Shown piece by piece: positions 2,921-60,428 of a DNA stretch of 64,000 nt. A program made the translations under genes and the position numbers. Origin of the DNA: a bacterium (GTDB lineage: Bacteria; Moduliflexota; Moduliflexia; Moduliflexales; JAUQPW01); NCBI GenBank assembly GCA_030550175.1, contig JAUQPW010000004.1, forward strand, positions 21,211 through 85,210, read 5' to 3'. The first letter of the stretch is position 1, and the number at the start of each line of letters is the position of its first letter. Under the pieces are notes generated by a model. It saw only the letters and a list, made by a program, of their open reading frames with translations. It did not search any database and was not told where the DNA came from.

Positions 2921-3098
2921 TACTTTGTAAAGTTAAATTTGAGTAATCATTTTGCCCTCACCCTCGGCCCCTCTCCCGAAGCTTCGGGAGAGGGTTACCG
3001 GGAAGCTGACCTGGAGATCCACCGGCTCCCCTCTCCCGCAGCGTGGGAGAGGGGCCGAGGGTGAGGGCCACTTAAAAGTCAAGCAAAACTAAGTAAAC
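2921..3098. mobile_element. MITE/REP-like composite element, copy 1. Two arms, each holding the core palindrome GCCCTCACCCTCGGCCCCTCTCCC / GGGAGAGGGGCCGAGGGTGAGGGC around AAGCTT or CAGCGTG.
   Basis: Inverted repeats read directly. The same family recurs at 8387, 27544, 46828 and 58038. Confidence 0.7.
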
Positions 3099-3213
3099 CA
3101 TATACAATTTTGTTTCCTGGGACGATTCTGTTTCCTGCTTTCCCGGCATTCTGTGCGGATTAATTTTTTTACCGCAAAGTTTGCAGAGAAGGTATAAAGG
3201 ACGCAAAGGCTTT

Positions 3214-27543: not shown

Positions 27544-27700
27544 TACTTTGTAAAGTTAAATTCGAGTAACCATTCTGTCCTCACCTCCGGCCCCTCTCCT
27601 GAAGCTTAGGGAGAGAGGGCACTTGGGGAGTTGATCCGGAGATTTGCCGACTTCCCCTCTCCTACAGTGTGGGAAAGGGGCCGGAGGTGAGGGTGAGCAA
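27544..27700. mobile_element. MITE/REP-like composite element, copy 3
   Basis: TACTTTGTAAAGTTAAATTCGAGTAA...CCCCTCTCCTGAAGCTTAGGGAGAGAGGG...CCCCTCTCCTACAGTGTGGGAAAGGGGCCGGAGGTGAGGGTGAG is collinear with copy 1. Confidence 0.7.
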
Positions 27701-43444: not shown

Positions 43445-46400
43445 TTATCTCTTGGCCAATTCCAGCTTCAACTCTTCAATTACTTTTTGGAGTTCCCCGA
43501 TTTGATTGTCCGCTTTAACCAAAGCAATGGCTTTTTCGCTGACGGCTTGATTGGCTATATCCAACTGGCCACGGAGCTGGCTCACCTGAGTGGTTAACTC
43601 TCCCAGAGCCTTTTCCTTTTCTTCCAGCTTTTTCCTGAACTCTTCTTGCATCTGGTTGAACTGGCTTTGAAGTTGTGCGAAGGCTTTTTCCTTTTCGTCC
43701 AGATTCTTCCGGACTTCCTCCAGTTGATTTTGTAACTGACCGGGTTGGGATCGTAAGCTTTCAAGGGCCTGATCTTTTTCCAGGAGTTGATTGTTTGCGG
43801 TGTCTAACTGGCTTCGAAGTTGAGCCATCTGGGTCAACAAACCCTCTATTTCCTTGTTCTTTTCTTCCTGGCTACGTTGAGCTTCTTCTTGTAGTTGTTT
43901 CAATCGGGTCGTTAAGGTCGTAAGCTCCTCGTCTTTTCCCTGGAGACGGGCCAGGGCTTCTTCAAGTTTACCCTGTAATTGGTTTACCTGATCGGTTAAG
44001 CTTGCAAGCAACCTGTCTTTCTCCTGGAGGTTTTGTTTCGACTCTTCCTGTAATCGGTTAAGTTGATCCGTGGCCGCAGCCAGGGCTTTATCTTTTTCAC
44101 TCAGATCTTCATTAACTGCCGCCAGTTGGTTTTGGAGTTGATCGAACTGCATAGCCCAGTTCGCCAGGGCCTGATCCTTTTCGGCAAGGACCTTCTGGCT
44201 CTCTTCCTGAGCCAGGGTAAGCTGAGCTTTTAAATCGGCTACCAGTCGATCTTTTTCTTCTTGTAATTGATTGAGCTTATGGGTTACCCGGGCTAAGGCG
44301 ATGTTCTTTTCACTTATCATGTCTTGCAGCGTCTTCAACTGACCCTGCAACTGATTAACCTGTTGGGTCACGTTGGTCACTGCAGCCTCTTTCTCCGTCA
44401 AATTTTGTTGAGATTCTTTTTTTAACTGATCCAGTTGCCGGCTCAAGTCGGTCAAAGCCAGGGTTTTTTCGCTTATATTCTGGTTGGCAACTTCTATCTG
44501 GGTTCGTAGTTGATTTATCTCTGCTATCAACTCTGCAATCCTTTGTTCTTTTTTATCTAAAGCTTTCCTGGCTTCCTCCCGTTCTTGAGCCATCTGATCC
44601 TTAAGCGCCAGGAGGGTCTGTTCCTTTTCGTTCAAAGCCTGTTGAGTCTGGTTCTGTAACTGATTCAAGGAAGCATTCAAAGAGGCAATGATTTTATCTT
44701 TCTCCTCCAGGTTCTTCTTCATTTCTTCTTGTAACTGACGGGATTGCTTATGCGAATCGGCCAACGCAAGGGTTTTTTCGCTCACATTCTGATTGGCAAA
44801 ATCCAGTTGACCCTGAAGTTGATTTAATCTGGCCGTTAGATCGGCAACTACCCGGTCTTTTTCTTCTAAACCTTTCTTTATTTCTTCCTGCAGTTGACGA
44901 ACCTGCGTGTTTAAGTCCGCAGCTATCTTTTCATTTTTCTCTAAATTCTCCTGGAGCTGGTTTCGCTGATGAATCAAATGGGCTAAAGCATTGGTTTTTT
45001 CACTGAGATTTTGGTGGGTTACTTCCAGTTGACCACGTAATTGATTTAACTGGCCTGTTAAATCCCCGATCACCCTGTCTTTCTTTGCCAGATTCTCCTG
45101 GAGTTGATTGAGTTGGTTGGTCAGGTTTACCAGGGTAATTGCTTTTTCACCTATATGTTGATGGGCCGTATTCAGTTGGGTTCGCAGCTGATTTACTTCT
45201 TGGGTTAGATCCCCGATCTTTTGCTCTTTCTCTGCCAAGCTCTTTTGAGTCTCTTTTTGTTCTCTACTCAATTCGTCAAGATTATTCTGGATCTTAGCCT
45301 GTAGATTTTTCTGCTGATGGAGTGCTTCGGTTAACCGATTCACTTCAGTATTTTTTGCCTCTAATTGAGCCCGTAATTGGTTCAACTGATCGGTTAAGCT
45401 GGCAAGAACTGCTTCCTTTTCTTGCAGATTTTTCCTACTTTCCTCCTGGACTCGATCCAATCGATTGGCTAAATCAGAGAGAGCTAATGTTTTTTCACTG
45501 AGGCTTTGATTGGCTGCATTAAGCTGGCCCAGAGACTGATTTAGTTGCGCAGTCAGGTTGGTAATGACCTGCTCTTTTTCGGTTACATTCTTTTGATATT
45601 CCTCTTGAAGTTGATTCAACTGCTTGCTTAAGTTATTGAACGCGAGGCTCTTTTCGCTGGCGTTTTGACGAGCAATATCCATTTGACCTCGGATTTGGTT
45701 GATCTGCGAAGCCAGTTCATTAACCACTCGCTCCTTTTCTGCTAAAATCCTTTGGGTTTCCTCTTGCTCCTGACTCTTCTTTTCTAAGTTACTTCGGATT
45801 TCCTCCAATTGTTTAGCGTGCCGGTTGAGATCTGCCATCAGGTTATCGATCTGAGTGTTTTTCTCATCCAGTTGAGCCTGCAACTGGTTGATCCGGCTGT
45901 TCAACTCCTCCAGGGCTTTGTTCTTTTCTTCCAGATTTTTTTGAGTTTCCTCGTGGGTCCGATTTAACTCCTTATGGATTCCCTCCAATTCAGCCAGATC
46001 CTGGTTGGCTTTCTTTAGCTGATCCTGCAACTGAGCAATCTGCTCAGTTAAATGCGTAGTTTCCCTGTCCTTTGCAGCTAACCTCTTATTTTCCCCTTGA
46101 AGCCGTCCGATCTGTTCTTTTAAGTCGGTCAAGGCTTTATCCTTTTCGGCAAGACCTTTATTTTCCTCTTGAAGCCGTCCGATCTGTTCTTTTAAGTCGG
46201 TCAAGGCTTTATCCTTCTCACTCAGGCTTTGATCGGCGTTTTTGAGTTGATCTTGCAATTCATTTACTCGAGCGGTTAAATCTCTTACCTGAGCTTCCTT
46301 TTCACTTAATGCTCTCTTAAAATCCTCCTGGACCTGGTTAAGTTGAGTTCGTAGGGTTATGAGTTCTTTGTCTTTTTCTTCAATATTTCTGCCGGCGTCT

Positions 46401-46627
46401 TCGAGTTTGCTCTGTGAATTTTTAAGTTGAGTATTTAGATCGGCCAGGATTTTATCTTTTTCGCTTAACTGCTTTTTAGATTCCTCTTGGATTTGATTTA
46501 ACTGATAACCCAGTTTACGAACTTCGCTCCTTTTGCTTGCATAGAGTCCTGTCATAAAAACTACTGCTATGGCCATGACAAGACTTAAAATGCCTAAACT
46601 TTTCTTTGTAAAAATTTGTACTTCCAT
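43445..46627 (-). CDS. Giant membrane-anchored coiled-coil protein (1060 aa) built from about 50-aa tandem repeats. Cytoskeleton-like / filament-forming candidate.
   Basis: N-terminal transmembrane helix (LGILSLVMAIAVVFMTGLY), then about 1000 residues of heptad-rich repeats (LTxQLNQLxGQLxxANQxLSEKxxAL...). Nearly no Pro, Gly or aromatic residues. Confidence 0.7.
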   Translation of the reverse strand: MEVQIFTKKSLGILSLVMAIAVVFMTGLYASKRSEVRKLGYQLNQIQEESKKQLSEKDKILADLNTQLKNSQSKLEDAGRNIEEKDKELITLRTQLNQVQEDFKRALSEKEAQVRDLTARVNELQDQLKNADQSLSEKDKALTDLKEQIGRLQEENKGLAEKDKALTDLKEQIGRLQGENKRLAAKDRETTHLTEQIAQLQDQLKKANQDLAELEGIHKELNRTHEETQKNLEEKNKALEELNSRINQLQAQLDEKNTQIDNLMADLNRHAKQLEEIRSNLEKKSQEQEETQRILAEKERVVNELASQINQIRGQMDIARQNASEKSLAFNNLSKQLNQLQEEYQKNVTEKEQVITNLTAQLNQSLGQLNAANQSLSEKTLALSDLANRLDRVQEESRKNLQEKEAVLASLTDQLNQLRAQLEAKNTEVNRLTEALHQQKNLQAKIQNNLDELSREQKETQKSLAEKEQKIGDLTQEVNQLRTQLNTAHQHIGEKAITLVNLTNQLNQLQENLAKKDRVIGDLTGQLNQLRGQLEVTHQNLSEKTNALAHLIHQRNQLQENLEKNEKIAADLNTQVRQLQEEIKKGLEEKDRVVADLTARLNQLQGQLDFANQNVSEKTLALADSHKQSRQLQEEMKKNLEEKDKIIASLNASLNQLQNQTQQALNEKEQTLLALKDQMAQEREEARKALDKKEQRIAELIAEINQLRTQIEVANQNISEKTLALTDLSRQLDQLKKESQQNLTEKEAAVTNVTQQVNQLQGQLKTLQDMISEKNIALARVTHKLNQLQEEKDRLVADLKAQLTLAQEESQKVLAEKDQALANWAMQFDQLQNQLAAVNEDLSEKDKALAAATDQLNRLQEESKQNLQEKDRLLASLTDQVNQLQGKLEEALARLQGKDEELTTLTTRLKQLQEEAQRSQEEKNKEIEGLLTQMAQLRSQLDTANNQLLEKDQALESLRSQPGQLQNQLEEVRKNLDEKEKAFAQLQSQFNQMQEEFRKKLEEKEKALGELTTQVSQLRGQLDIANQAVSEKAIALVKADNQIGELQKVIEELKLELAKR
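46097..46216. repeat. Tandem duplication of a 72-bp (24-aa) unit inside the coiled-coil gene. The first about 48 nt of the two units are identical.
   Basis: TTGAAGCCGTCCGATCTGTTCTTTTAAGTCGGTCAAGGCTTTATCCTT occurs at 46097 and again at 46169. The protein reads LTDLKEQIGRLQEENK... twice. Confidence 0.8.
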
Positions 46628-46827
46628 ACTTCTTTTCTGACTGCCTCCTCCCTAAAGTTGTTAAACTACCATTGAAAATTGATAACAATTGTCCAACAAG
46701 AATCCCCTATTTCTGGGGAATATGTCAAGGGGTTTTTTGGAAATCTTCATGGGACATGAAATCCAGATAATTTTTAATACCCAGTTGGGTTTGATAGGAA
46801 GAAGTATCGTATTGTTATCTTGTAATA

Positions 46828-46945
46828 CACTGTTTACTTAATTGTAACCTCATAGGACTGCTTTCACTCCCTAACCCCCCCTGCTGGGAGAGGGGCCGGG
46901 GGTGAGGGCTGCTTAAAAGTCAAACAAAACTAAGTAAACAATATA
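46828..46945. mobile_element. MITE-like element, copy 4, with TGTTTACTTA(A/G)TT terminal inverted repeats and the GGGAGAGGGGCCGGGGGTGAGGGC core
   Basis: Left end ACACTGTTTACTTAATTG and right end AACTAAGTAAACA are reverse complements. The internal core is shared with the other copies. Confidence 0.65.
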
Positions 46946-55216: not shown

Positions 55217-56209
55217 TTATTTATTCTGTTGATTTCCGGTTGATATTCGCTTTAAGGGTGGAATCACGGTCGAGGTGGGGGTTGGAGTTACTTTGGGAGT
55301 CGGGGTTGCCGAAGGGGTGGGGGTGGGAGTAGGCGTTACATCCGGTGTTGAGGTCACCGAAGGGGTGGGGGTGGGAGTGGGCGTCATATCCGGTGTTGGG
55401 GTCACCGAAGGGGTGGGGGTGGGCGTTGTGTTGGAAGTTTGGGTAGGGGTTGGAGTAGGAGTAGAGAGAGACGGTGTTACGGTAGGCGTAGAGGTTGGCG
55501 TAGGGCTTGGCGTGGCCGGATGTGGAGTCGGTGTGGGAGTGGACTCGGAGCGATAAGGAGTTGGGGTTGGTTCCGGTCGGACCGAAGTTGCAGGATTGGA
55601 TAGAACCATTTGGGGAGTTGGTGTGGGAGTGGCAACAGCCGGAGCCGGAATGGGGAGCGAAAAGGGGGATCCTGTAAGGTTATTATGGATGGTGACCGGT
55701 ATCCCATTAACCTCTCCGATCACGTTTTTCTCTCCGTTTATTTTTTCGATTTTACAAAGGATGGAATGATCCGGTTTATTGGGAGTTATATTCACTCCGA
55801 ACTGGAAATCGATATTTTTAGAGGCCTGCATGACTCTTACGATGAAATCTCCAAAGGGAATACCCATAAAGACAAATTCACCGTTTTGCCCGGTAATCGT
55901 ACTACTTATTTCGTTATTTTTTTCATCCAGCAACAGGACCAGAAGGCCGGGAACTCCCACGGTGTTACTTGTATTGATTACGGCCTCGGCAGGATATATG
56001 AAGGTAAAAGCTAAGGCAAATATTTTCTCCAACCAGGTATCTTGAGAGAGTTGAGTTCCGGCATCGGTGATAATTCGACCGTTCAAGGTACCTATTCCGC
56101 TTAGGGGTTCGGTTCCAGTCGGGCTATTCTCGAAATCTCCACAGCCATAAAGTGAAACCACTATGGCCAGGATGAACAATTTTCTACTCAACCCACCTGT
56201 CTTTTCCAT
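55217..56209 (-). CDS. Lipoprotein with carboxypeptidase-regulatory-like beta domain and about 120-aa Pro/Thr-rich repetitive C-terminal tail
   Basis: The signal peptide ends in LYGCG (lipobox). [18 protein letters not shown] has the CarbopepD_reg-like pattern. The tail is [20 protein letters not shown]... repeats. Confidence 0.6.
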
Positions 56210-56241: not shown

Positions 56242-57132
56242 TTAAGGAACCGCCTGCTTTTCCTTCGACTTACACAAAGGAAATCCCATTTCTTCCCGTT
56301 GTTTGATGTAAGCTTCTGCACACATTTTCGTAATATTTCGAACTCGTGCAATGAATCCGGTTCGTTCTGTAACACTTATGGCCCCCCTTGCTTCCAGAAG
56401 ATTGAACGTATGAGAACATTTCAGACAGTAATCATAGGCGGCCAGAACTATTTTTCTATCCACAGCTCGCAGAGCTTCACGCTCATACATTTCAAACAAG
56501 CGGAACAGCATATCTACATCGGCGACTTCAAAATTATATCGGGAGTACTCCACTTCACTTTGATGGTGAACGTCTCCATATTTAATACCTGGTGTCCAGA
56601 TTAAGTCAAATACATTATCAACTTTTTGTAAATACATGGCGATACGTTCCAATCCGTAGGTAATTTCGCCCGAAATAGGGAAAAGATCGATGCCGCCCGC
56701 CTGTTGAAAATAGGTAAACTGGGTAATTTCCATCCCATCCAGCCAGACCTCCCAACCCAGTCCCCAGGCTCCCAGGGTTGGGTTTTCCCAGTCATCTTCC
56801 ACAAACCGGATATCGTGTTCCAGGGGGTCAATGCCCAGATTGAATAAACTCTCCAGGTAAAGGTCCTGGAGATTATTTGGAGAGGGTTTCATCAGGACTT
56901 GATATTGGTAATAATGTTGGAGGCGATTAGGATTCTCACCATAACGACCGTCCGTGGGTCTACGGGACGGCTGTACATAGGCCACATTCCAGGGTTCCGG
57001 ACCGAGGCATCGAAGCAGTGTGGCGGGATGACAGGTTCCTGCTCCTACTTCCATATCATAGGGTTGTAGAAGGATACATCCTTTATTGGCCCAGAATCGC
57101 TCAAGTGTTAGAATAACCTCTTGAAAAGTCAT
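56242..57132 (-). CDS. glyQ: Glycine--tRNA ligase alpha subunit
   Basis: [33 protein letters not shown] and the rest match GlyQ over its full length (296 aa). Confidence 0.9.
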
Positions 57133-57205: not shown

Positions 57206-57949
57206 CTATGGGATATACACTTTGTTCTGTTTCTCGACCTGACAAATACAATTGGGTACGATCGTTGTTTGAATAAATTCCTTTTGGTTCTGGATCAAGT
57301 TTAATCGAATATATTTGCTGGTTACTGTACCCTTATCCAGATAAGCTAAGATCTCCGGCAAAGCCAGTGCAACCAGAGCTTCATTGACGGCTAAAATTTC
57401 TTCTCCTCGATTCCAGTGGATTTCTTCTTGAGGATCCCCGGTATCCAGGTAGCCGGCTGCTCGGCGTAAAGCCCTTTTCCTGTCGGAAACGGGTAACGGT
57501 AACCCCATACAGAAAAGGCATTCTTCCCCGGGGAGTTGGATTCTTATCTGGCCTCCCTTGAAAATGACCTGTCCATTTCGAATGACGATCCCGGCTCCCA
57601 GGTCAAAGAGGGGTACTTTAAAGTAAAGGCAAGCCATGGCCAGGTATTGTCGGGTTTCATTATTATCTACGCAACCAACAACAATCTGATAATCTTGAAA
57701 ATTCTCCGTACAATCCTGGACTTTACTTTGAATTTTTTTCAGAAATCGATATCCGAATACGGCTTCAAAAGCTTCCGTTTTATAAAACCCCACATGTTGG
57801 TCTGTAGTGCCTACCAGCCTGGGAAGGTTAGAGGATTCTATTTTATCGGGTTCTATGACGGCCACATGGATATGTCCCCAGGGCATTAATTTTCGCATCA
57901 GCGTCCAGCCATTTCCACCGAGGCCAACTAATAATAGGTCCAACATCAT
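57206..57949 (-). CDS. Minimal E1-like ThiF/MoeB-family adenylyltransferase (BilD-like), last gene of the Ubl operon
   Basis: LVGLGGNGWTLMRKL Rossmann motif, ESSNLPRL, VGCVDNNETRQYLAMAC, and a CxxC (ECLFCMG). Confidence 0.7.
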   Translation of the reverse strand: MMLDLLLVGLGGNGWTLMRKLMPWGHIHVAVIEPDKIESSNLPRLVGTTDQHVGFYKTEAFEAVFGYRFLKKIQSKVQDCTENFQDYQIVVGCVDNNETRQYLAMACLYFKVPLFDLGAGIVIRNGQVIFKGGQIRIQLPGEECLFCMGLPLPVSDRKRALRRAAGYLDTGDPQEEIHWNRGEEILAVNEALVALALPEILAYLDKGTVTSKYIRLNLIQNQKEFIQTTIVPNCICQVEKQNKVYIP

Positions 57950-58037
57950 CTCGATGCAAGGGCATAGAGAAGCGGAGGTATCAAGGTGTTACCTGGTTTC
58001 CGTATCTCTATATCCTTACACCCCTGCGTTGATTGGC

Positions 58038-58165
58038 ACACTGTTACCTTAGTTTTGACCTCCTAGGACTACCTTCACTCCCCAACGCCCCTCTCCCGCA
58101 GCGTGGGAGAGGGGCCGGGGTGAGGGCCACTCAAAAGTCAAGCCAAAACTAAGTAAACAGTGTAT
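58038..58165. mobile_element. MITE-like element, copy 5, with about 20-bp terminal inverted repeats (ACACTGTTACCTTAGTTTTGAC ... GTCAAGCCAAAACTAAGTAAACAGTGT)
   Basis: The inverted repeats and the CCCCTCTCCCGCAGCGTGGGAGAGGGGCCGGGGTGAGGGCC core are read directly. It lies between the JAB and E1 genes of the Ubl operon. Confidence 0.7.
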
Positions 58166-58602
58166 TAGTTCACTATTTTGATCCTTACCGGTTGATAGGT
58201 TTCCTTTAAATAAATCCCGGCCTGATATTCTGTACGTGAAAATAACAGTCGAACAAGGGTATTGTTTTGGATATAATTACCCTCTTTATCGTAGAATCCG
58301 TACCGAGCCAGTTGAGGATGATAGGTGTTATCTATTTTGGAGTATCTGGCTTTTTTAGAAAGGGGATGGGTATGAAAAAGGAACAGATAATATCCTTGAG
58401 CGTGGACCCACTGAAGGTAAGAACCACACTGTTCGGGGTCTATAACGACATGGAAAAGTCCATTATGTTGGATTTTCGTATCCTTTAAAATTTCAACCAG
58501 TTTAAATTCTTTAGATACAGCACCCAGGTAAGCTTTTTCTTTTGGTGACCGAAGTGCCTTTTTAAGGAAAGCCAGATCGGCCCTTGATATTTTAAGGACC
58601 AC
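58165..58602 (-). CDS. JAB/MPN (JAMM) metallopeptidase-like protein (BilC-like deconjugating enzyme candidate)
   Basis: JAMM triad read directly: DPEQCG (Glu), FHTHP (HxH), and S-K-I-D (S-x2-D). The start was moved to the GTG at about 58602 to remove a 65-nt overlap with the upstream gene. Confidence 0.6.
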   Translation of the reverse strand: MVLKISRADLAFLKKALRSPKEKAYLGAVSKEFKLVEILKDTKIQHNGLFHVVIDPEQCGSYLQWVHAQGYYLFLFHTHPLSKKARYSKIDNTYHPQLARYGFYDKEGNYIQNNTLVRLLFSRTEYQAGIYLKETYQPVRIKIVN

Positions 58603-58603
58603 A

Positions 58604-59158
58604 CTACCACCATCTCTTTCTCGTTTTCTCTGCCTGTCGCGCGAACCAATGCCAGGCCGCACGTACATATTCCGCTAAGGTAACATCTGCATAGACGTGG
58701 AAACAAGACCAACACCATCCCAGGTCTCCGTGATGGGACTGACGAGAAGTTGCAGGAAAATAATGTTCCCCTAAAAGCCGGCTAAATCCCTCTTCAATAT
58801 GCATGAGGTAATTTTTGACGGCTCCCTTATTTCCGGCTGTAACCGGCAACTCTATCAGTGCATGGGTGACCGGGCTTTCTTTTCCACAGGTAAGGGCCAA
58901 CTCCGCAGGCAATTTCCAGTTATAGAGATAAATGTAGTCAAACCCTTCGATATAAGAACCCTTCTGATCTTTGGAAGTACGTACATCCGCCATGGCATAG
59001 ATCCCTTTGGTCTCGTATGCCGGCAATTCAATGGGATGAGAAAAACGGAAGCACTCTTCGGTACCTATGAGTTTAATCAATTCAAGGTACTGACGATTGA
59101 TCTCCTCAACGTTTTGTCTATACCAGTTAAACAGTTTAAACACAGAACAACCCCTCAA
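58604..59158 (-). CDS. E2-like candidate (BilB-like) by operon position. The UBC fold cannot be confirmed by eye.
   Basis: A 184-aa protein sitting between the Ubl and JAB genes. Candidate Cys residues are C91 and C149 (HHGDLGWCW). No canonical HPN motif. Confidence 0.35.
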   Translation of the reverse strand: MRGCSVFKLFNWYRQNVEEINRQYLELIKLIGTEECFRFSHPIELPAYETKGIYAMADVRTSKDQKGSYIEGFDYIYLYNWKLPAELALTCGKESPVTHALIELPVTAGNKGAVKNYLMHIEEGFSRLLGEHYFPATSRQSHHGDLGWCWSCFHVYADVTLAEYVRAAWHWFARQAEKTRKRWW

Positions 59159-59261
59159 GACTCTACAACAGTCTTACAATCCACATTAACCTTTCAAAGG
59201 TTTTTGACCTTTGAAAGGTTAACGTTACAGAGGTTCTTTAACCGTATAAGTGCCAAGCTGT

Positions 59262-59555
59262 TTAACCCGAGATCACTTGGGGATTGGTGGCGATTTTCAC
59301 ACCTTTTAATTTCTCCGTACTAAAGTTATCGGTCAGTAGCTTAGAAGTAGAATTACCGGTATATTCCGTAACGGTATAATCTTCCGGAACTCCTAAAAAT
59401 TCCTTGAGCTGGCCAACAGTCTTTATAGATTCGGGTACTTCAACCCGCTTACCATTATGAATGATAGTATAAGTACTCCCGGTAGAGGACTCAGATTCTC
59501 TCAGAGGGTCAAAGGGATGGGTATAGGATCTTTCATCATCGATTACCTTTTGCAT
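59262..59555 (-). CDS. Small ubiquitin-like (beta-grasp) protein candidate ending in Gly (BilA-like)
   Basis: 97 aa. The C-terminus ...NPQVISG is followed by a stop. It is the first gene of an operon with E2-like, JAB and E1 genes. Confidence 0.45.
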   Translation of the reverse strand: MQKVIDDERSYTHPFDPLRESESSTGSTYTIIHNGKRVEVPESIKTVGQLKEFLGVPEDYTVTEYTGNSTSKLLTDNFSTEKLKGVKIATNPQVISG

Positions 59556-59657: not shown

Positions 59658-60428
59658 CTAACCTTGGGCTAATCTTCTTATGGAATCTAAAAATTCTGGA
59701 GCCTTCAGAGGAACCTCCAGATAGAAATCCAACCATCTCCTTAAAAGCATCTTGATTTCCCTTTGAGCATCTTCAGAAATCCTGAGTCGAGGGCATTTTT
59801 CTAAGTCCATCTTCAAAAGTTGTTTTAAGATCTGAAGTGCTTGTAAGGAGGTTGGAAAAACCGGGTTTCCTTCCCCGGTACATCCTTTACAAAGGCCACC
59901 TCCTTTAGATAAGCTGAATAAAACCCGAGGGGTATTTAAGGGGTTTCGGCATTGCGCACACCGATCCAAAACGGGGCTATAGCCGGACAGGGTCAGGAAT
60001 TTAATTTCAAAGGTTATAAGAACCTTATCCATTTCCTCTTCGGGATATACCACCATCGCTCTCAACGCCTGGGTCATTAAATCATATAGCGGAGGGCTTT
60101 CTTCGTTTTCACCCACACCTTTATCTACCAACTCAACTAGACTGGCTGCTGAAGCGAGTTTCCGTAAATCTCCTCTCAGTTCAGAAAACGACTCGATAAT
60201 ATCTGCCTGACCGATGTTAGGAAAGGTGTAGGTTTCCTTTTCAAAGAGGTTCACCTGGACCCGAGTGAATAACTCCAGACTACTCCCAAACCGATTTTTC
60301 AACTTTCTCGATCCTCGGGCTATCCCTCTCAATTTACCGAAGGACTTTGAATAAAAAACAATGATTTTATCGGCCTCGTTAATATCGAAAGACCGGATTA
60401 CAAACGCTTCTGTCTTTTTAAAACCCAT
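59658..60428 (-). CDS. recO: DNA repair protein RecO
   Basis: MGFKKTEAFVIRSFDINEADKIIVFYSKSFGKL (OB-fold N-terminus) and a C-terminal CxxC...CxxC zinc finger (CAQCRNP...CKGCTGE). The ATG at 60428 is preferred to the upstream TTG. Confidence 0.8.
   Translation of the reverse strand: MGFKKTEAFVIRSFDINEADKIIVFYSKSFGKLRGIARGSRKLKNRFGSSLELFTRVQVNLFEKETYTFPNIGQADIIESFSELRGDLRKLASAASLVELVDKGVGENEESPPLYDLMTQALRAMVVYPEEEMDKVLITFEIKFLTLSGYSPVLDRCAQCRNPLNTPRVLFSLSKGGGLCKGCTGEGNPVFPTSLQALQILKQLLKMDLEKCPRLRISEDAQREIKMLLRRWLDFYLEVPLKAPEFLDSIRRLAQG

What the first reader, a model, noticed from the sequence alone, without database searches (positions are those of the whole stretch)
57206..59555. Four-gene Ubl / E2-like / JAB / E1 operon (Bil-like) inserted between recO and glyQ
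On the minus strand the gene order is:
- a small beta-grasp-sized protein ending in a single Gly (97 aa);
- a 184-aa protein with no recognisable enzyme motif;
- a JAMM metallopeptidase with an intact E / HxH / S-x2-D triad;
- a minimal ThiF/MoeB E1 with the Rossmann motif and a CxxC.

This matches the bilA-bilB-bilC-bilD arrangement of bacterial ISG15-like antiphage conjugation systems. The flanking genes recO and glyQ are commonly adjacent in bacteria, so the block looks like a defence-island-style insertion. A MITE sits inside the operon. Whether this organism's version conjugates the Ubl to phage or host targets is unknown.
Basis: partly seen in the sequence, partly recalled or inferred. 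Interest (0 to 1): 0.85.

Follow-up and report, generated by a model that had tools for sequence, protein, structure and literature searches.

The report
Split Bub-like ubiquitin-like conjugation cassette
Between the housekeeping genes recO and glyQ, this uncultured bacterium carries four conserved genes for a small ubiquitin-like protein, its activating enzyme, a JAB-type peptidase and an orphan 179-aa partner; they are a stripped-down relative of the recently described bacterial 'Bub' ubiquitination-like systems, not of Bil, and appear stably inherited in every relative recovered rather than mobile.

Summary
The four minus-strand genes exist and are under strong purifying selection (dN/dS 0.02-0.16). 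The flanks are recO and glyQ, and the MITE is real.

Three parts are verified:
- **E1:** a ThiF-family enzyme (Pfam E=5e-18).
- **JAB:** the E/HxH/SxxD motif is invariant in the 145-aa protein and aligns with a Bub JAB domain.

The label 'Bil-like' is wrong in kind. The E1 is a 229-247-aa single domain with no inactive adenylation domain and no cysteine domain. It matches Bub (6E/DUF6527) E1s far better than MoeB/ThiF (hhalign 1e-19 versus 2e-8). It also carries the Bub crossover-loop tyrosine where other E1s have a catalytic cysteine.

The cassette still fails Bub membership: it has no BubE. The protein in the E2 slot is a sequence orphan (one cluster among 1.84 billion representatives) with no demonstrable UBC fold.

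It is not a defence island. Every relative recovered carries it at the same site, composition is native, neighbours are housekeeping genes, and there are no regulators. Relatives were mostly found through the cassette's own proteins, so this sampling is biased.

Best reading: a divergent, split, BubE-less Bub-like conjugation system of unknown biological role.

The parts
59262..59555 (-). Ubiquitin-like protein, 97 aa. It has a variable N-terminal tail of about 25 aa and a single beta-grasp domain. The C-terminus ...NPQ(V/I)ISG ends directly at Gly97, so no processing is needed.
59186..59223 (-). Perfect 16-bp stem-loop in the spacer between the Ubl gene and the 179-aa gene. It may be a partial terminator or an mRNA stabiliser.
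   Evidence: Read from the sequence. The spacer folds at -41 kcal/mol, z=-4.9. The hairpin is present in the window and L001, partly in L005, and not in L002 or L003.
58604..59143 (-). 179-aa orphan protein in the 'E2 slot'. The ORF extends to 59158, but the GTG at 59143 is the likely start. Invariant residues include C31, C144, S146, C147 and H149, within the motif HHGDLGWCWSCFH.
   Evidence: The orthologues start with ATG at this position. It is the most conserved of the four proteins: 84-99% identity and dN about 0.07, against 0.15 for RecO. It has no Pfam, NCBIfam, PADLOC or PHROG family. phmmer against 1.84 billion representatives finds only its own cluster plus one spurious repeat protein. 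The AlphaFold2 model has pLDDT 47. Its hhalign match to BubB is not significant: E=0.05, and 14 of 200 shuffles reach the score.
58165..58602 (-). JAB/JAMM-type metallopeptidase, 145 aa. The ORF extends to 58668, but the GTG at 58602 is the likely start. Motif residues are E22, H77, H79, S88 and D91.
   Evidence: The motif residues are identical in every orthologue that covers them: H77, H79, S88 and D91 in all 5, and E22 in the 4 that span it. Prok-JAB is the family matched by all 5 orthologues, but below threshold at E 0.03-0.3. hhalign against the BubC JAB domain gives E=1e-4 with HxH, S and D in register, and 0 of 100 shuffles reach the score. It is the top ORF in the window for a BubC HMM, E=0.05.
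58038..58163 (.). MITE-like element of 126 bp, with 20-nt terminal inverted repeats and an internal GC-rich palindrome. It is inserted between the JAB and E1 genes. A second inverted repeat lies at 57955-58020.
   Evidence: It is present only in the window and L001. In L006 the JAB stop codon and the E1 start codon are 2 nt apart. L002 and L003 carry different palindromic inserts at the same junction.
57206..57949 (-). Minimal E1 (ThiF family), 247 aa here and 229-247 aa in orthologues. It is a single adenylation domain with no N-terminal helix or arginine-finger segment. It has a beta-hairpin insertion at 121-129, zinc ligands C144xxC147 and C234xC236, and no cysteine in the crossover loop (148-183). 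Tyr167 is invariant.
   Evidence: Pfam ThiF E=5e-18. hhalign against Bub E1 domains gives probability 99.2%, E=1e-19 over 196 columns, running through the crossover loop, with Y167 aligned to the invariant Bub tyrosine. Against MoeB/ThiF it gives only E=2e-8 over 132 columns and stops at the CxxC. A BubD HMM hits it at E=3e-22. The stop-to-stop ORF leaves room for only 13 more codons upstream.
59658..60428 (-). recO, the upstream flank on the same strand.
   Evidence: Pfam RecO_N and RecO_C. The 256-aa form is in public collections.
56242..57132 (-). glyQ, the downstream flank on the same strand.
   Evidence: Pfam tRNA-synt_2e, E=3e-152.

Best explanation
This is a four-gene ubiquitin-like protein conjugation cassette. 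It is a distant relative of the bacterial Bub (6E/DUF6527) systems, with all components encoded as separate genes and without BubE.

Proposed steps:
1. The 97-aa Ubl already ends in Gly97, so it needs no maturation.
2. The minimal E1 binds the Ubl and ATP and adenylates Gly97. The domain and active-site residues are shown; the activity is inferred.
3. The E1 has no crossover-loop cysteine. The adenylate is taken either by the invariant crossover-loop Tyr167 as an oxyester, as shown biochemically for Bub E1s, or directly by the partner protein. This step is inferred from the alignment of Tyr167 with the Bub catalytic tyrosine.
4. The invariant 179-aa protein in the E2 position accepts the Ubl, or positions it, and transfers it to target lysines. 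Candidate residues are in the WCWSCFH cluster. This rests on gene position and conservation only and is the weakest step.
5. The JAB peptidase removes the Ubl from targets (inferred).

The biological role is undecided. The fixed position between recO and glyQ, the strong purifying selection and the absence of defence-type regulators or neighbours point to a stably kept function. That function could be either constitutive defence or modification of the cell's own proteins.
For: - **E1:** Pfam ThiF. The best plasmid relatives are Bub operons. hhalign to Bub E1 gives E=1e-19 with the tyrosines aligned, against 2e-8 to MoeB/ThiF. The GxGxxG loop, D35, R44, K57, D95 and the CxxC are conserved.
- **JAB:** invariant motif, sub-threshold Prok-JAB hits in all orthologues, and hhalign to BubC at E=1e-4 with 0 of 100 shuffles.
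- **Window-wide check:** Bub HMMs pick exactly these three ORFs as best among 713 ORFs.
- **Gene order:** the same as split Bub operons on plasmids (Ubl, E2, JAB, E1). A fully split, DUF6527-less four-gene variant also exists (L098, L102).
- **Selection:** all four genes are under purifying selection and co-diverge with recO.
- **Context rule:** Iyer et al. 2006 found that E1s without a rhodanese domain and next to a JAB gene belong to the conjugation-type operons.
- **Biochemistry of the comparator:** the Bub mechanism is described in Ye et al. 2024.
Against: - The E2-slot protein shows no significant similarity to BubB or any E2. Pfam, PADLOC, NCBIfam and PDB give nothing. hhalign gives E=0.05, with 14 of 200 shuffles reaching the score.
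- BubE, which the Bub authors say all Bub operons encode, is absent from the 64-kb window.
- The E1 lacks the N-terminal segment that carries the arginine finger in MoeB and the conserved RQ in Bub E1s.
- The Ubl and JAB similarities to Bub are modest and rest on shallow alignments.
- No biochemistry exists for this system.
- No biological role has been shown even for Bub.
Confidence: 0.5

Rival explanations
1. Sulfur-carrier pathway. The Ubl is a ThiS/MoaD-type carrier that the E1 adenylates and that is then converted to a thiocarboxylate. The 179-aa protein, with three invariant cysteines, is the sulfur-accepting or sulfur-inserting enzyme of a lineage-specific core pathway. The JAB releases an adduct, as Mec+/CysO or QbsD/QbsE do.
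For: - IMG names a member of the Ubl cluster (at least 90% identical) 'sulfur carrier protein ThiS'.
- The E1 has no catalytic cysteine, like MoeB.
- NCBIfam best hits are MoeB and ThiF, though far below cut-off.
- The location is fixed and core-like, under strong purifying selection.
- C31, C144 and C147 are invariant in the 179-aa protein.
- Ubl + E1 + JAB sulfur-transfer operons are known.
Against: - The carrier ends in Ser-Gly, not the Gly-Gly of ThiS, MoaD, CysO and TtuB (the Gly-Gly rule is from my own knowledge).
- The E1 has no rhodanese domain, and no SirA, cysteine desulfurase or sulfur-metabolism gene is nearby. Iyer et al. found these accompany sulfur-type operons.
- The E1 matches Bub E1s much better than MoeB/ThiF, including the crossover tyrosine.
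- The Ubl and JAB match Bub components.
- No Pfam ThiS hit.
Confidence: 0.15
2. One reading: a genuine Bil (ISG15-like) antiphage system, carried as an accessory defence island, that tags phage structural proteins.
For: The gene order Ubl / unknown / JAB / E1 equals BilA-B-C-D. recO and glyQ are adjacent in other phyla, so the block was inserted. The second zinc pair of the E1 is CxC, as reported for BilD.
Against: - The E1 lacks the inactive adenylation domain and the cysteine domain that define BilD.
- PADLOC gives BilD E=0.043 and no BilA, BilB or BilC hit.
- PDB chains of BilA-D are not hit, whereas BubCD is.
- There are no defence or mobile-element neighbours, no CapH/CapP or WYL regulator, and native GC content.
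- The site is the same in all relatives recovered.
- There is no match in viral contigs.
Confidence: 0.05
3. Conjugation cassette without an E2. The E1 transfers the Ubl directly. The 179-aa protein is not a carrier enzyme but the dedicated target, an effector switched by modification, or an adaptor. It might even complement the truncated N-terminus of the E1.
For: - No E2 signal was found in any test.
- The protein is more conserved than the enzymes around it, at dN 0.07.
- The E1 lacks its N-terminal arginine-finger segment.
- In vitro, Bub E1/E2 readily modify the E2 itself.
Against: - Its position matches the E2 slot of every Bub and Bil operon.
- A greedy hhalign alignment is collinear over almost all of BubB, though not significant.
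- A bona fide E2-slot protein of the split plasmid variant also fails to match BubB, so a negative sequence test means little.
Confidence: 0.2

Closest known systems
Type I Bub operons (6E.1 / DUF6527; Ye, Gong, Chambers & Corbett 2024, bioRxiv 10.1101/2024.11.21.623953), including the split forms seen on cyanobacterial, Deinococcus and rhizobial plasmids
   Same: - Same gene order: Ubl, E2 slot, JAB, E1.
- Single-domain, homodimer-type E1 without a crossover-loop cysteine and with the invariant tyrosine aligned.
- Shared beta-hairpin insertion in the E1.
- The Ubl ends in Gly and is weakly but significantly similar to the multi-ubiquitin domain.
- The JAB motif aligns in register.
   Different: - JAB and E1 are separate genes.
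- There is no BubE/DUF6527.
- There is no CapH/CapP or WYL regulator and no mobile-element context.
- The Ubl has one beta-grasp domain and does not reach the Pfam Multi_ubiq threshold.
- The E2-slot protein is 179 aa, is not Prok-E2_E, and has cysteines where BubB has none.
- The E1 lacks its N-terminal RQ segment.
- It is chromosomal, at the same site in every relative recovered.
Fully split four-gene variant on plasmids of Rhizobium leguminosarum and Methylocystis rosea (L098, L102): multiubiquitin / 110 aa / 171 aa JAB-like / ThiF of 307-319 aa
   Same: - Four separate genes in the same order.
- No DUF6527.
- The JAB and E2-slot proteins have no Pfam hits.
- The E1 crossover loop aligns, including Tyr and the W..G motif (hhalign E=2e-11).
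   Different: - That variant has a three-domain Multi_ubiq Ubl, HTH + ImmA/IrrE regulators and a plasmid or defence-type neighbourhood.
- Its E2-slot protein (110 aa) is unrelated in sequence to the 179-aa protein (E=0.45).
- Its E1 keeps the N-terminal segment.
Type I/II BilABCD (Millman 2022; Chambers 2023/2024; Hör 2024)
   Same: Order Ubl-E2-JAB-E1, a Ubl with a reactive C-terminal Gly, a JAB peptidase, and a CxC second zinc pair in the E1.
   Different: BilD is a multidomain E1 (inactive adenylation, active adenylation and cysteine domains) with a catalytic cysteine. BilB is a recognisable E2 with a Cys-His pair. Bil sits in defence islands. None of these holds here.
ThiS/MoaD-ThiF/MoeB-JAB sulfur-transfer operons (CysO/Mec+/MoeZ, QbsCDE, HcyS/D/F; Iyer et al. 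2006 classes 4a-4e)
   Same: A small beta-grasp carrier, a cysteine-less adenylating E1, a standalone JAB and one extra enzyme. The setting is chromosomal and housekeeping-like.
   Different: The carrier ends in SG, not GG. There is no rhodanese, SirA or sulfur-pathway gene. The E1 is closer to Bub than to MoeB/ThiF.

Membership tests
Bil (Type I/II BilABCD) | [quoted passage not shown] | tested here: not met
   The E1 is 229-247 aa with one ThiF domain. The crossover loop (148-183) has no cysteine. PADLOC BilD scores E=0.043. The BilD chain is not among PDB hits at E<=10.
Bil (Type I/II BilABCD) | E2 (BilB) with a UBC-like fold, a catalytic Cys and a conserved downstream His | tested here: inconclusive
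Bil (Type I/II BilABCD) | Gene order Ubl-E2-JAB-E1, with a Ubl that has a reactive C-terminal Gly | tested here: met
   The identity of the second gene is unproven.
Bub (6E / DUF6527) | Single-domain homodimer-type E1 with no crossover-loop cysteine and an invariant crossover-loop tyrosine | tested here: met
   hhalign A4 against Bub E1 gives E=1e-19, with Y167 aligned to the invariant Tyr. There is no cysteine in residues 148-183. Dimerisation itself was not tested.
Bub (6E / DUF6527) | BubE (DUF6527 serine protease) encoded in the operon ('all Bub operons encode BubE') | tested here: not met
   A BubE HMM built from 7 plasmid operons finds nothing among 713 window ORFs (best E=1.4). The gene after the E1 is glyQ.
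Bub (6E / DUF6527) | E2 (BubB, Pfam Prok-E2_E) with an invariant Ser and an accompanying His | tested here: not met
   No Pfam hit. hhalign against BubB gives E=0.05 at probability 1%, with 14 of 200 shuffles reaching the score. A BubB HMM does not pick the ORF. Caveat: the control, BubB against the E2-slot protein of the split plasmid variant, also fails.
Bub (6E / DUF6527) | Ubl of the multi-ubiquitin type ending in Gly | tested here: inconclusive
JAB/JAMM metallopeptidases | E ... HxH ... S-x2-D zinc site on a JAB fold | tested here: inconclusive
   The motif residues are identical in every orthologue that covers them. Pfam Prok-JAB is the family matched by all 5 orthologues, but below the gathering score. 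hhalign against BubC gives E=1e-4 with the motif in register.
ThiS/MoaD sulfur-carrier systems | Carrier with a C-terminal Gly-Gly; E1 fused to rhodanese or next to a sulfurtransferase or pathway enzyme | tested here: not met
   The C-terminus is Ser-Gly. The E1 has no extra domain. The neighbours are recO, glyQ, acs, an isochorismatase-family gene, uvrB and ABC binding proteins. Thiocarboxylate chemistry cannot be tested here.
MITE | Short non-coding element with terminal inverted repeats, present in several copies, with presence/absence polymorphism at orthologous sites | tested here: met

The most novel reading that the evidence does not exclude
This is a 'domesticated' bacterial ubiquitination-like system. 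In this reading, a Bub-derived Ubl/E1/JAB module became a fixed, vertically inherited part of the core genome of an uncultured lineage. It lost BubE and its stress regulators and recruited a new, non-UBC carrier/ligase (the 179-aa orphan). It now modifies the cell's own proteins, without cysteine thioesters, rather than serving as mobile phage defence.
Probability: 0.2. Interest if true: 0.8.

Novelty: new variant of a known kind. Interest (0 to 1): 0.55.

Why it matters
Bub systems were described only in 2024, and their biological role is still unknown; the authors found no phage protection.

This version is stripped to four small separate proteins. It lacks BubE and regulators, and it appears stably inherited next to housekeeping genes. 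That makes it a natural minimal system for three questions:
- What does the chemistry need?
- Is the tyrosine oxyester route general?
- Do such pathways have non-defence roles?

It also shows that current family models (Pfam, NCBIfam, PADLOC) miss this branch altogether. Three of the four proteins are annotated as hypothetical.

Tried and rejected
1. Word-indexed homologue searches for the 179-aa protein, the E1 and the JAB profile returned only in-lineage hits.
2. A full phmmer search of the 179-aa protein against 1.84 billion representatives returned its own cluster plus a spurious low-complexity repeat protein.
3. PDB profile searches for the Ubl, the 179-aa protein and the JAB gave nothing meaningful. 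The CpcJ and Vif hits were judged to be chance.
5. The afdb50 fold library was unavailable.
6. The RecO-seeded genome scan found nothing. No unbiased set of close relatives was obtained, so no empty site could be looked for. Relatives were mostly found through the cassette's own proteins, which is an ascertainment bias. Only near-identical strains were reached from RecO or GlyQ.
7. Scanning metagenome and viral contigs with the 179-aa profile gave one more syntenic locus and no viral hit.
8. Rfam found nothing in the window. The promoter and terminator scan was no better than shuffles.
9. A MAFFT alignment of the Ubl with E. coli ThiS was uninformative.
10. I considered equating the WSxxH stretch of the 179-aa protein with the WSxH catalytic motif of BubB. 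I rejected it as unsupported, because hhalign puts the BubB serine in a gap and the score is not significant.
Full report
**1. What is there**

On the minus strand the window carries, in order:
- recO (59658-60428)
- a 97-aa ORF (59262-59555)
- a 184-aa ORF (58604-59158)
- a 167-aa ORF (58165-58668)
- a 247-aa ORF (57206-57949)
- glyQ (56242-57132)

Orthologous loci show that the second gene starts at the GTG at 59143, giving 179 aa; the orthologues have ATG there. They also show that the third gene starts at the GTG at 58602, two bases after the preceding stop, giving 145 aa.

The same six-gene arrangement occurs on metagenome contigs from JGI, ENA and Logan (L001-L006, L087, L104, L105) and in an NCBI MAG (HWP48606-HWP48610) labelled 'Candidatus Limnocylindrales bacterium'.

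Identities to the window proteins:

| Protein | Identity to the window |
|---|---|
| Ubl | 78-98% |
| 179-aa protein | 84-99% |
| JAB | 76-97% |
| E1 | 73-91% |
| RecO | 71-96% |

Pairwise dN/dS is 0.02-0.16 for all four genes, and synonymous sites are saturated between the deeper pairs. The 179-aa protein has about half the non-synonymous divergence of RecO (0.07 against 0.15), close to that of GlyQ. These are functional genes, not chance ORFs.

**2. The parts**

*E1.* It matches Pfam ThiF at E=5e-18. The glycine-rich loop, D35, S40-N41, R44, K57, D95-N96, R100 and C144xxC147 align with E. coli MoeB and ThiF. A second zinc pair is C234xC236.

The protein begins directly at the Rossmann strand. 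It lacks the 30 or so N-terminal residues that carry R14 in MoeB and the invariant RQ in Bub E1 domains. The open frame leaves no room for them, and in L006 the JAB stop codon and the E1 start codon are 2 nt apart.

The crossover loop (148-183) has no cysteine. Where ThiF has C184 and MoeB has C187, this E1 has arginine. The loop contains one invariant tyrosine, Y167.

*Ubl.* It ends ...NPQ(V/I)ISG-stop in all orthologues. A single-sequence AlphaFold2 model is of moderate quality: pLDDT 64.5 overall and 77-79 in the core. Its secondary-structure order is that of a beta-grasp.

*JAB.* E22, H77xH79 and S88xxD91 are identical in every orthologue that covers them. Pfam Prok-JAB is the family matched by all five orthologues, but only at E 0.03-0.3, below threshold.

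*179-aa protein.* It has no hit in Pfam, NCBIfam, PADLOC, PHROGs or PDB sequences. A full phmmer scan of 1.84 billion cluster representatives found only its own cluster and a spurious repeat protein.

**3. Which known system it resembles**

Bil is defined by a multidomain E1 with an inactive adenylation domain, an active adenylation domain and a cysteine domain holding the catalytic cysteine. This E1 has none of that.

PADLOC gives BilD only E=0.043 and gives nothing for the other three proteins. The solved Bil chains are not hit by any of the four profiles.

A tblastn search of the E1 against 72,556 plasmids gave 46 weak hits. The top ones are Bub (6E/DUF6527) operons:
- a multiubiquitin protein
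- an E2/UBC protein (Prok-E2_E)
- a JAB-ThiF fusion
- DUF6527

These usually sit next to an HTH + ImmA/IrrE regulator pair. I built alignments of the four Bub components from seven of these operons and compared them with the window proteins.

| Window protein | Comparison | hhalign result | Column-shuffle control |
|---|---|---|---|
| E1 | Bub E1 domain | probability 99.2%, E=1e-19, 196 columns | not run |
| E1 | MoeB + ThiF | E=2e-8, 132 columns, stops at the CxxC | not run |
| JAB | Bub JAB domain | E=1e-4; HxH, S and D in register | 0 of 100 reach the score |
| Ubl | last beta-grasp of BubA | E=1e-4 | 0 of 100 reach the score |
| 179-aa protein | BubB | E=0.05, probability 1% | 14 of 200 reach the score |

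The hhalign results are, and the shuffle controls.

The E1 alignment to Bub runs through the beta-hairpin insertion and the crossover loop. There AAGYLDTG-DP aligns with AEAYVLGEGNP, so Y167 falls on the tyrosine that is invariant in the Bub E1 alignment. Ye et al. describe a tyrosine as the only invariant crossover-loop residue of BubCD and show it is required for conjugation.

HMMs built from the Bub components and run against all 713 six-frame ORFs of the window gave these results:
- The BubD HMM picks the E1 as the top ORF (3e-22).
- The BubA HMM picks the Ubl as the top ORF (0.003).
- The BubC HMM picks the JAB as the top ORF (0.05).
- The BubB HMM finds nothing.
- The BubE HMM finds nothing.

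A greedy realignment of the 179-aa protein with BubB is collinear over nearly the whole of BubB. I count that only as a lead.

A useful control comes from the fully split plasmid variant (L098, L102). It consists of a multiubiquitin protein, a 110-aa protein, a 171-aa JAB-like protein and a ThiF of 307-319 aa, with no DUF6527. Its E2-slot protein also fails to match BubB (E=0.13), and its JAB and E2-slot proteins also lack Pfam hits. Its E1 matches this E1 at E=2e-11, with the tyrosine and a following W..G motif aligned. A negative sequence test on the E2 slot therefore has little weight.

**4. Membership**

The cassette meets the E1 criterion for Bub and, at profile-profile level, the Ubl and JAB criteria. 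It fails two others. It has no BubE, although the authors state that all Bub operons encode BubE. It also has no recognisable Prok-E2_E protein.

It fails the central Bil criterion, the multidomain E1.

It fails the sulfur-carrier criteria:
- The C-terminus is Ser-Gly, not Gly-Gly.
- There is no rhodanese, SirA or pathway enzyme.

I therefore file it as something that works like Bub, not as a member of Bub or Bil.

**5. Context**

In 16 of the 80 glyQ loci fetched from other phyla, recO lies upstream of glyQ. In several the gap is only about 80-220 nt (L008, L016, L021, L036, L037), and none of those loci has any of the four genes. In five loci (four labelled Desulfobacterales or Desulfobacteraceae), a gene that looks like a GHMP kinase by its PPRSALGGSS motif sits in that gap. 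The block was therefore inserted at some point in the ancestry of this lineage.

It does not look like a defence island:
- GC content is 0.44, against 0.46 for the window.
- The neighbours are acs, an isochorismatase-family gene, uvrB, ABC binding proteins and a PT-rich protein.
- There is no integrase, tRNA or regulator.
- There is no hit in viral contigs.
- Every relative recovered has the block at the same place, with divergence tracking that of recO.

One caveat applies. Most relatives were found through the cassette's own proteins, and the two unbiased scans returned no close relatives. Universal occupancy in the lineage is therefore likely but not proven.

The JAB-E1 junction is a hotspot for small palindromic insertions. 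The MITE is present in the window and L001, different inserts are present in L002 and L003, and L006 has none. The E1 stays intact and constrained in all of them.

**6. Mechanism**

Shown:
- a beta-grasp Ubl with a free C-terminal Gly
- an E1 with the adenylation residues intact, no catalytic cysteine and the Bub-type tyrosine
- a JAB motif
- strong constraint on all four genes

Inferred:
- adenylation of Gly97
- transfer through Tyr167 (oxyester) or directly to the 179-aa partner
- conjugation to lysines
- reversal by the JAB, which is not needed for Ubl maturation here

The role of the 179-aa protein is the weakest link.

The biological function (defence or endogenous regulation) is open. 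It is open for Bub itself too.

**7. Verdict**

It is wrong in family (Bub-like, not Bil) and in ecology (apparently fixed, not an island). The E2 claim is untested in effect.

This is a new variant of a known kind. Interest is moderate to good.

Noticed in passing
window 3028-3103, 27654-27680, 46827-46944, 58038-58163: A dispersed MITE-like family. It has 20-nt terminal inverted repeats (ACACTGTTTACTTAGTTTTG...) around the GC-rich palindrome CCCCTCTCCCGCAGCGTGGGAGAGGGG. Some copies are partial. The region around 2960-3060 holds two such palindromes in tandem.
   Followed up: partly
L002 4759-4892; L003 2466-2575; L006 339-342: The JAB-E1 junction holds a different palindromic insert in each sub-lineage, and none in L006, where the stop and start codons are 2 nt apart. 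This intergenic site is a repeated target for small elements.
   Followed up: partly
window 59186-59223: A perfect 16-bp hairpin lies in the spacer between the Ubl gene and the 179-aa gene (spacer fold z=-4.9). It is conserved only in the closest relatives. It might set the ratio of Ubl to enzymes.
   Followed up: partly
L098 2522-4316; L102 1822-4280: Plasmids of Rhizobium leguminosarum and Methylocystis rosea carry a fully split four-gene Bub-like operon: multiubiquitin, 110 aa, a 171-aa JAB-like protein and a ThiF of 307-319 aa. It has no DUF6527. The 110-aa and 171-aa proteins have no Pfam hit, and the JAB-like gene is not in the PLSDB gene table for L098. This may be an undescribed Bub subtype.
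   Followed up: partly
L012 6776-8001; L014 1266-2499; L018 3936-5087; L024 5887-6960; L042 6913-8001: In these five MAG loci (four labelled Desulfobacterales or Desulfobacteraceae), a gene of about 360 aa sits between recO and glyQ. It looks like a GHMP kinase by its PPRSALGGSS motif, judged by eye with no Pfam run. The recO-glyQ junction therefore holds different cargo in different lineages.
   Followed up: no
window 56242-57132 (glyQ): A close MAG is labelled 'Candidatus Limnocylindrales' (Chloroflexota). The taxonomic label may be unreliable, or the lineage may be absent from the collection.
   Followed up: no
window 55217-56209: A 330-aa protein whose C-terminal half is almost entirely (S/T)PTPTP repeats. 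It causes a sharp local rise in GC content and GC skew and has no Pfam family. In L002 the gene at this position encodes a PKD-domain protein.
   Followed up: no
window 43445-46627: A 1060-aa protein with only coiled-coil-type Pfam matches (crescentin rod, ATG16 and similar). It may be a large cytoskeletal or filament protein.
   Followed up: no
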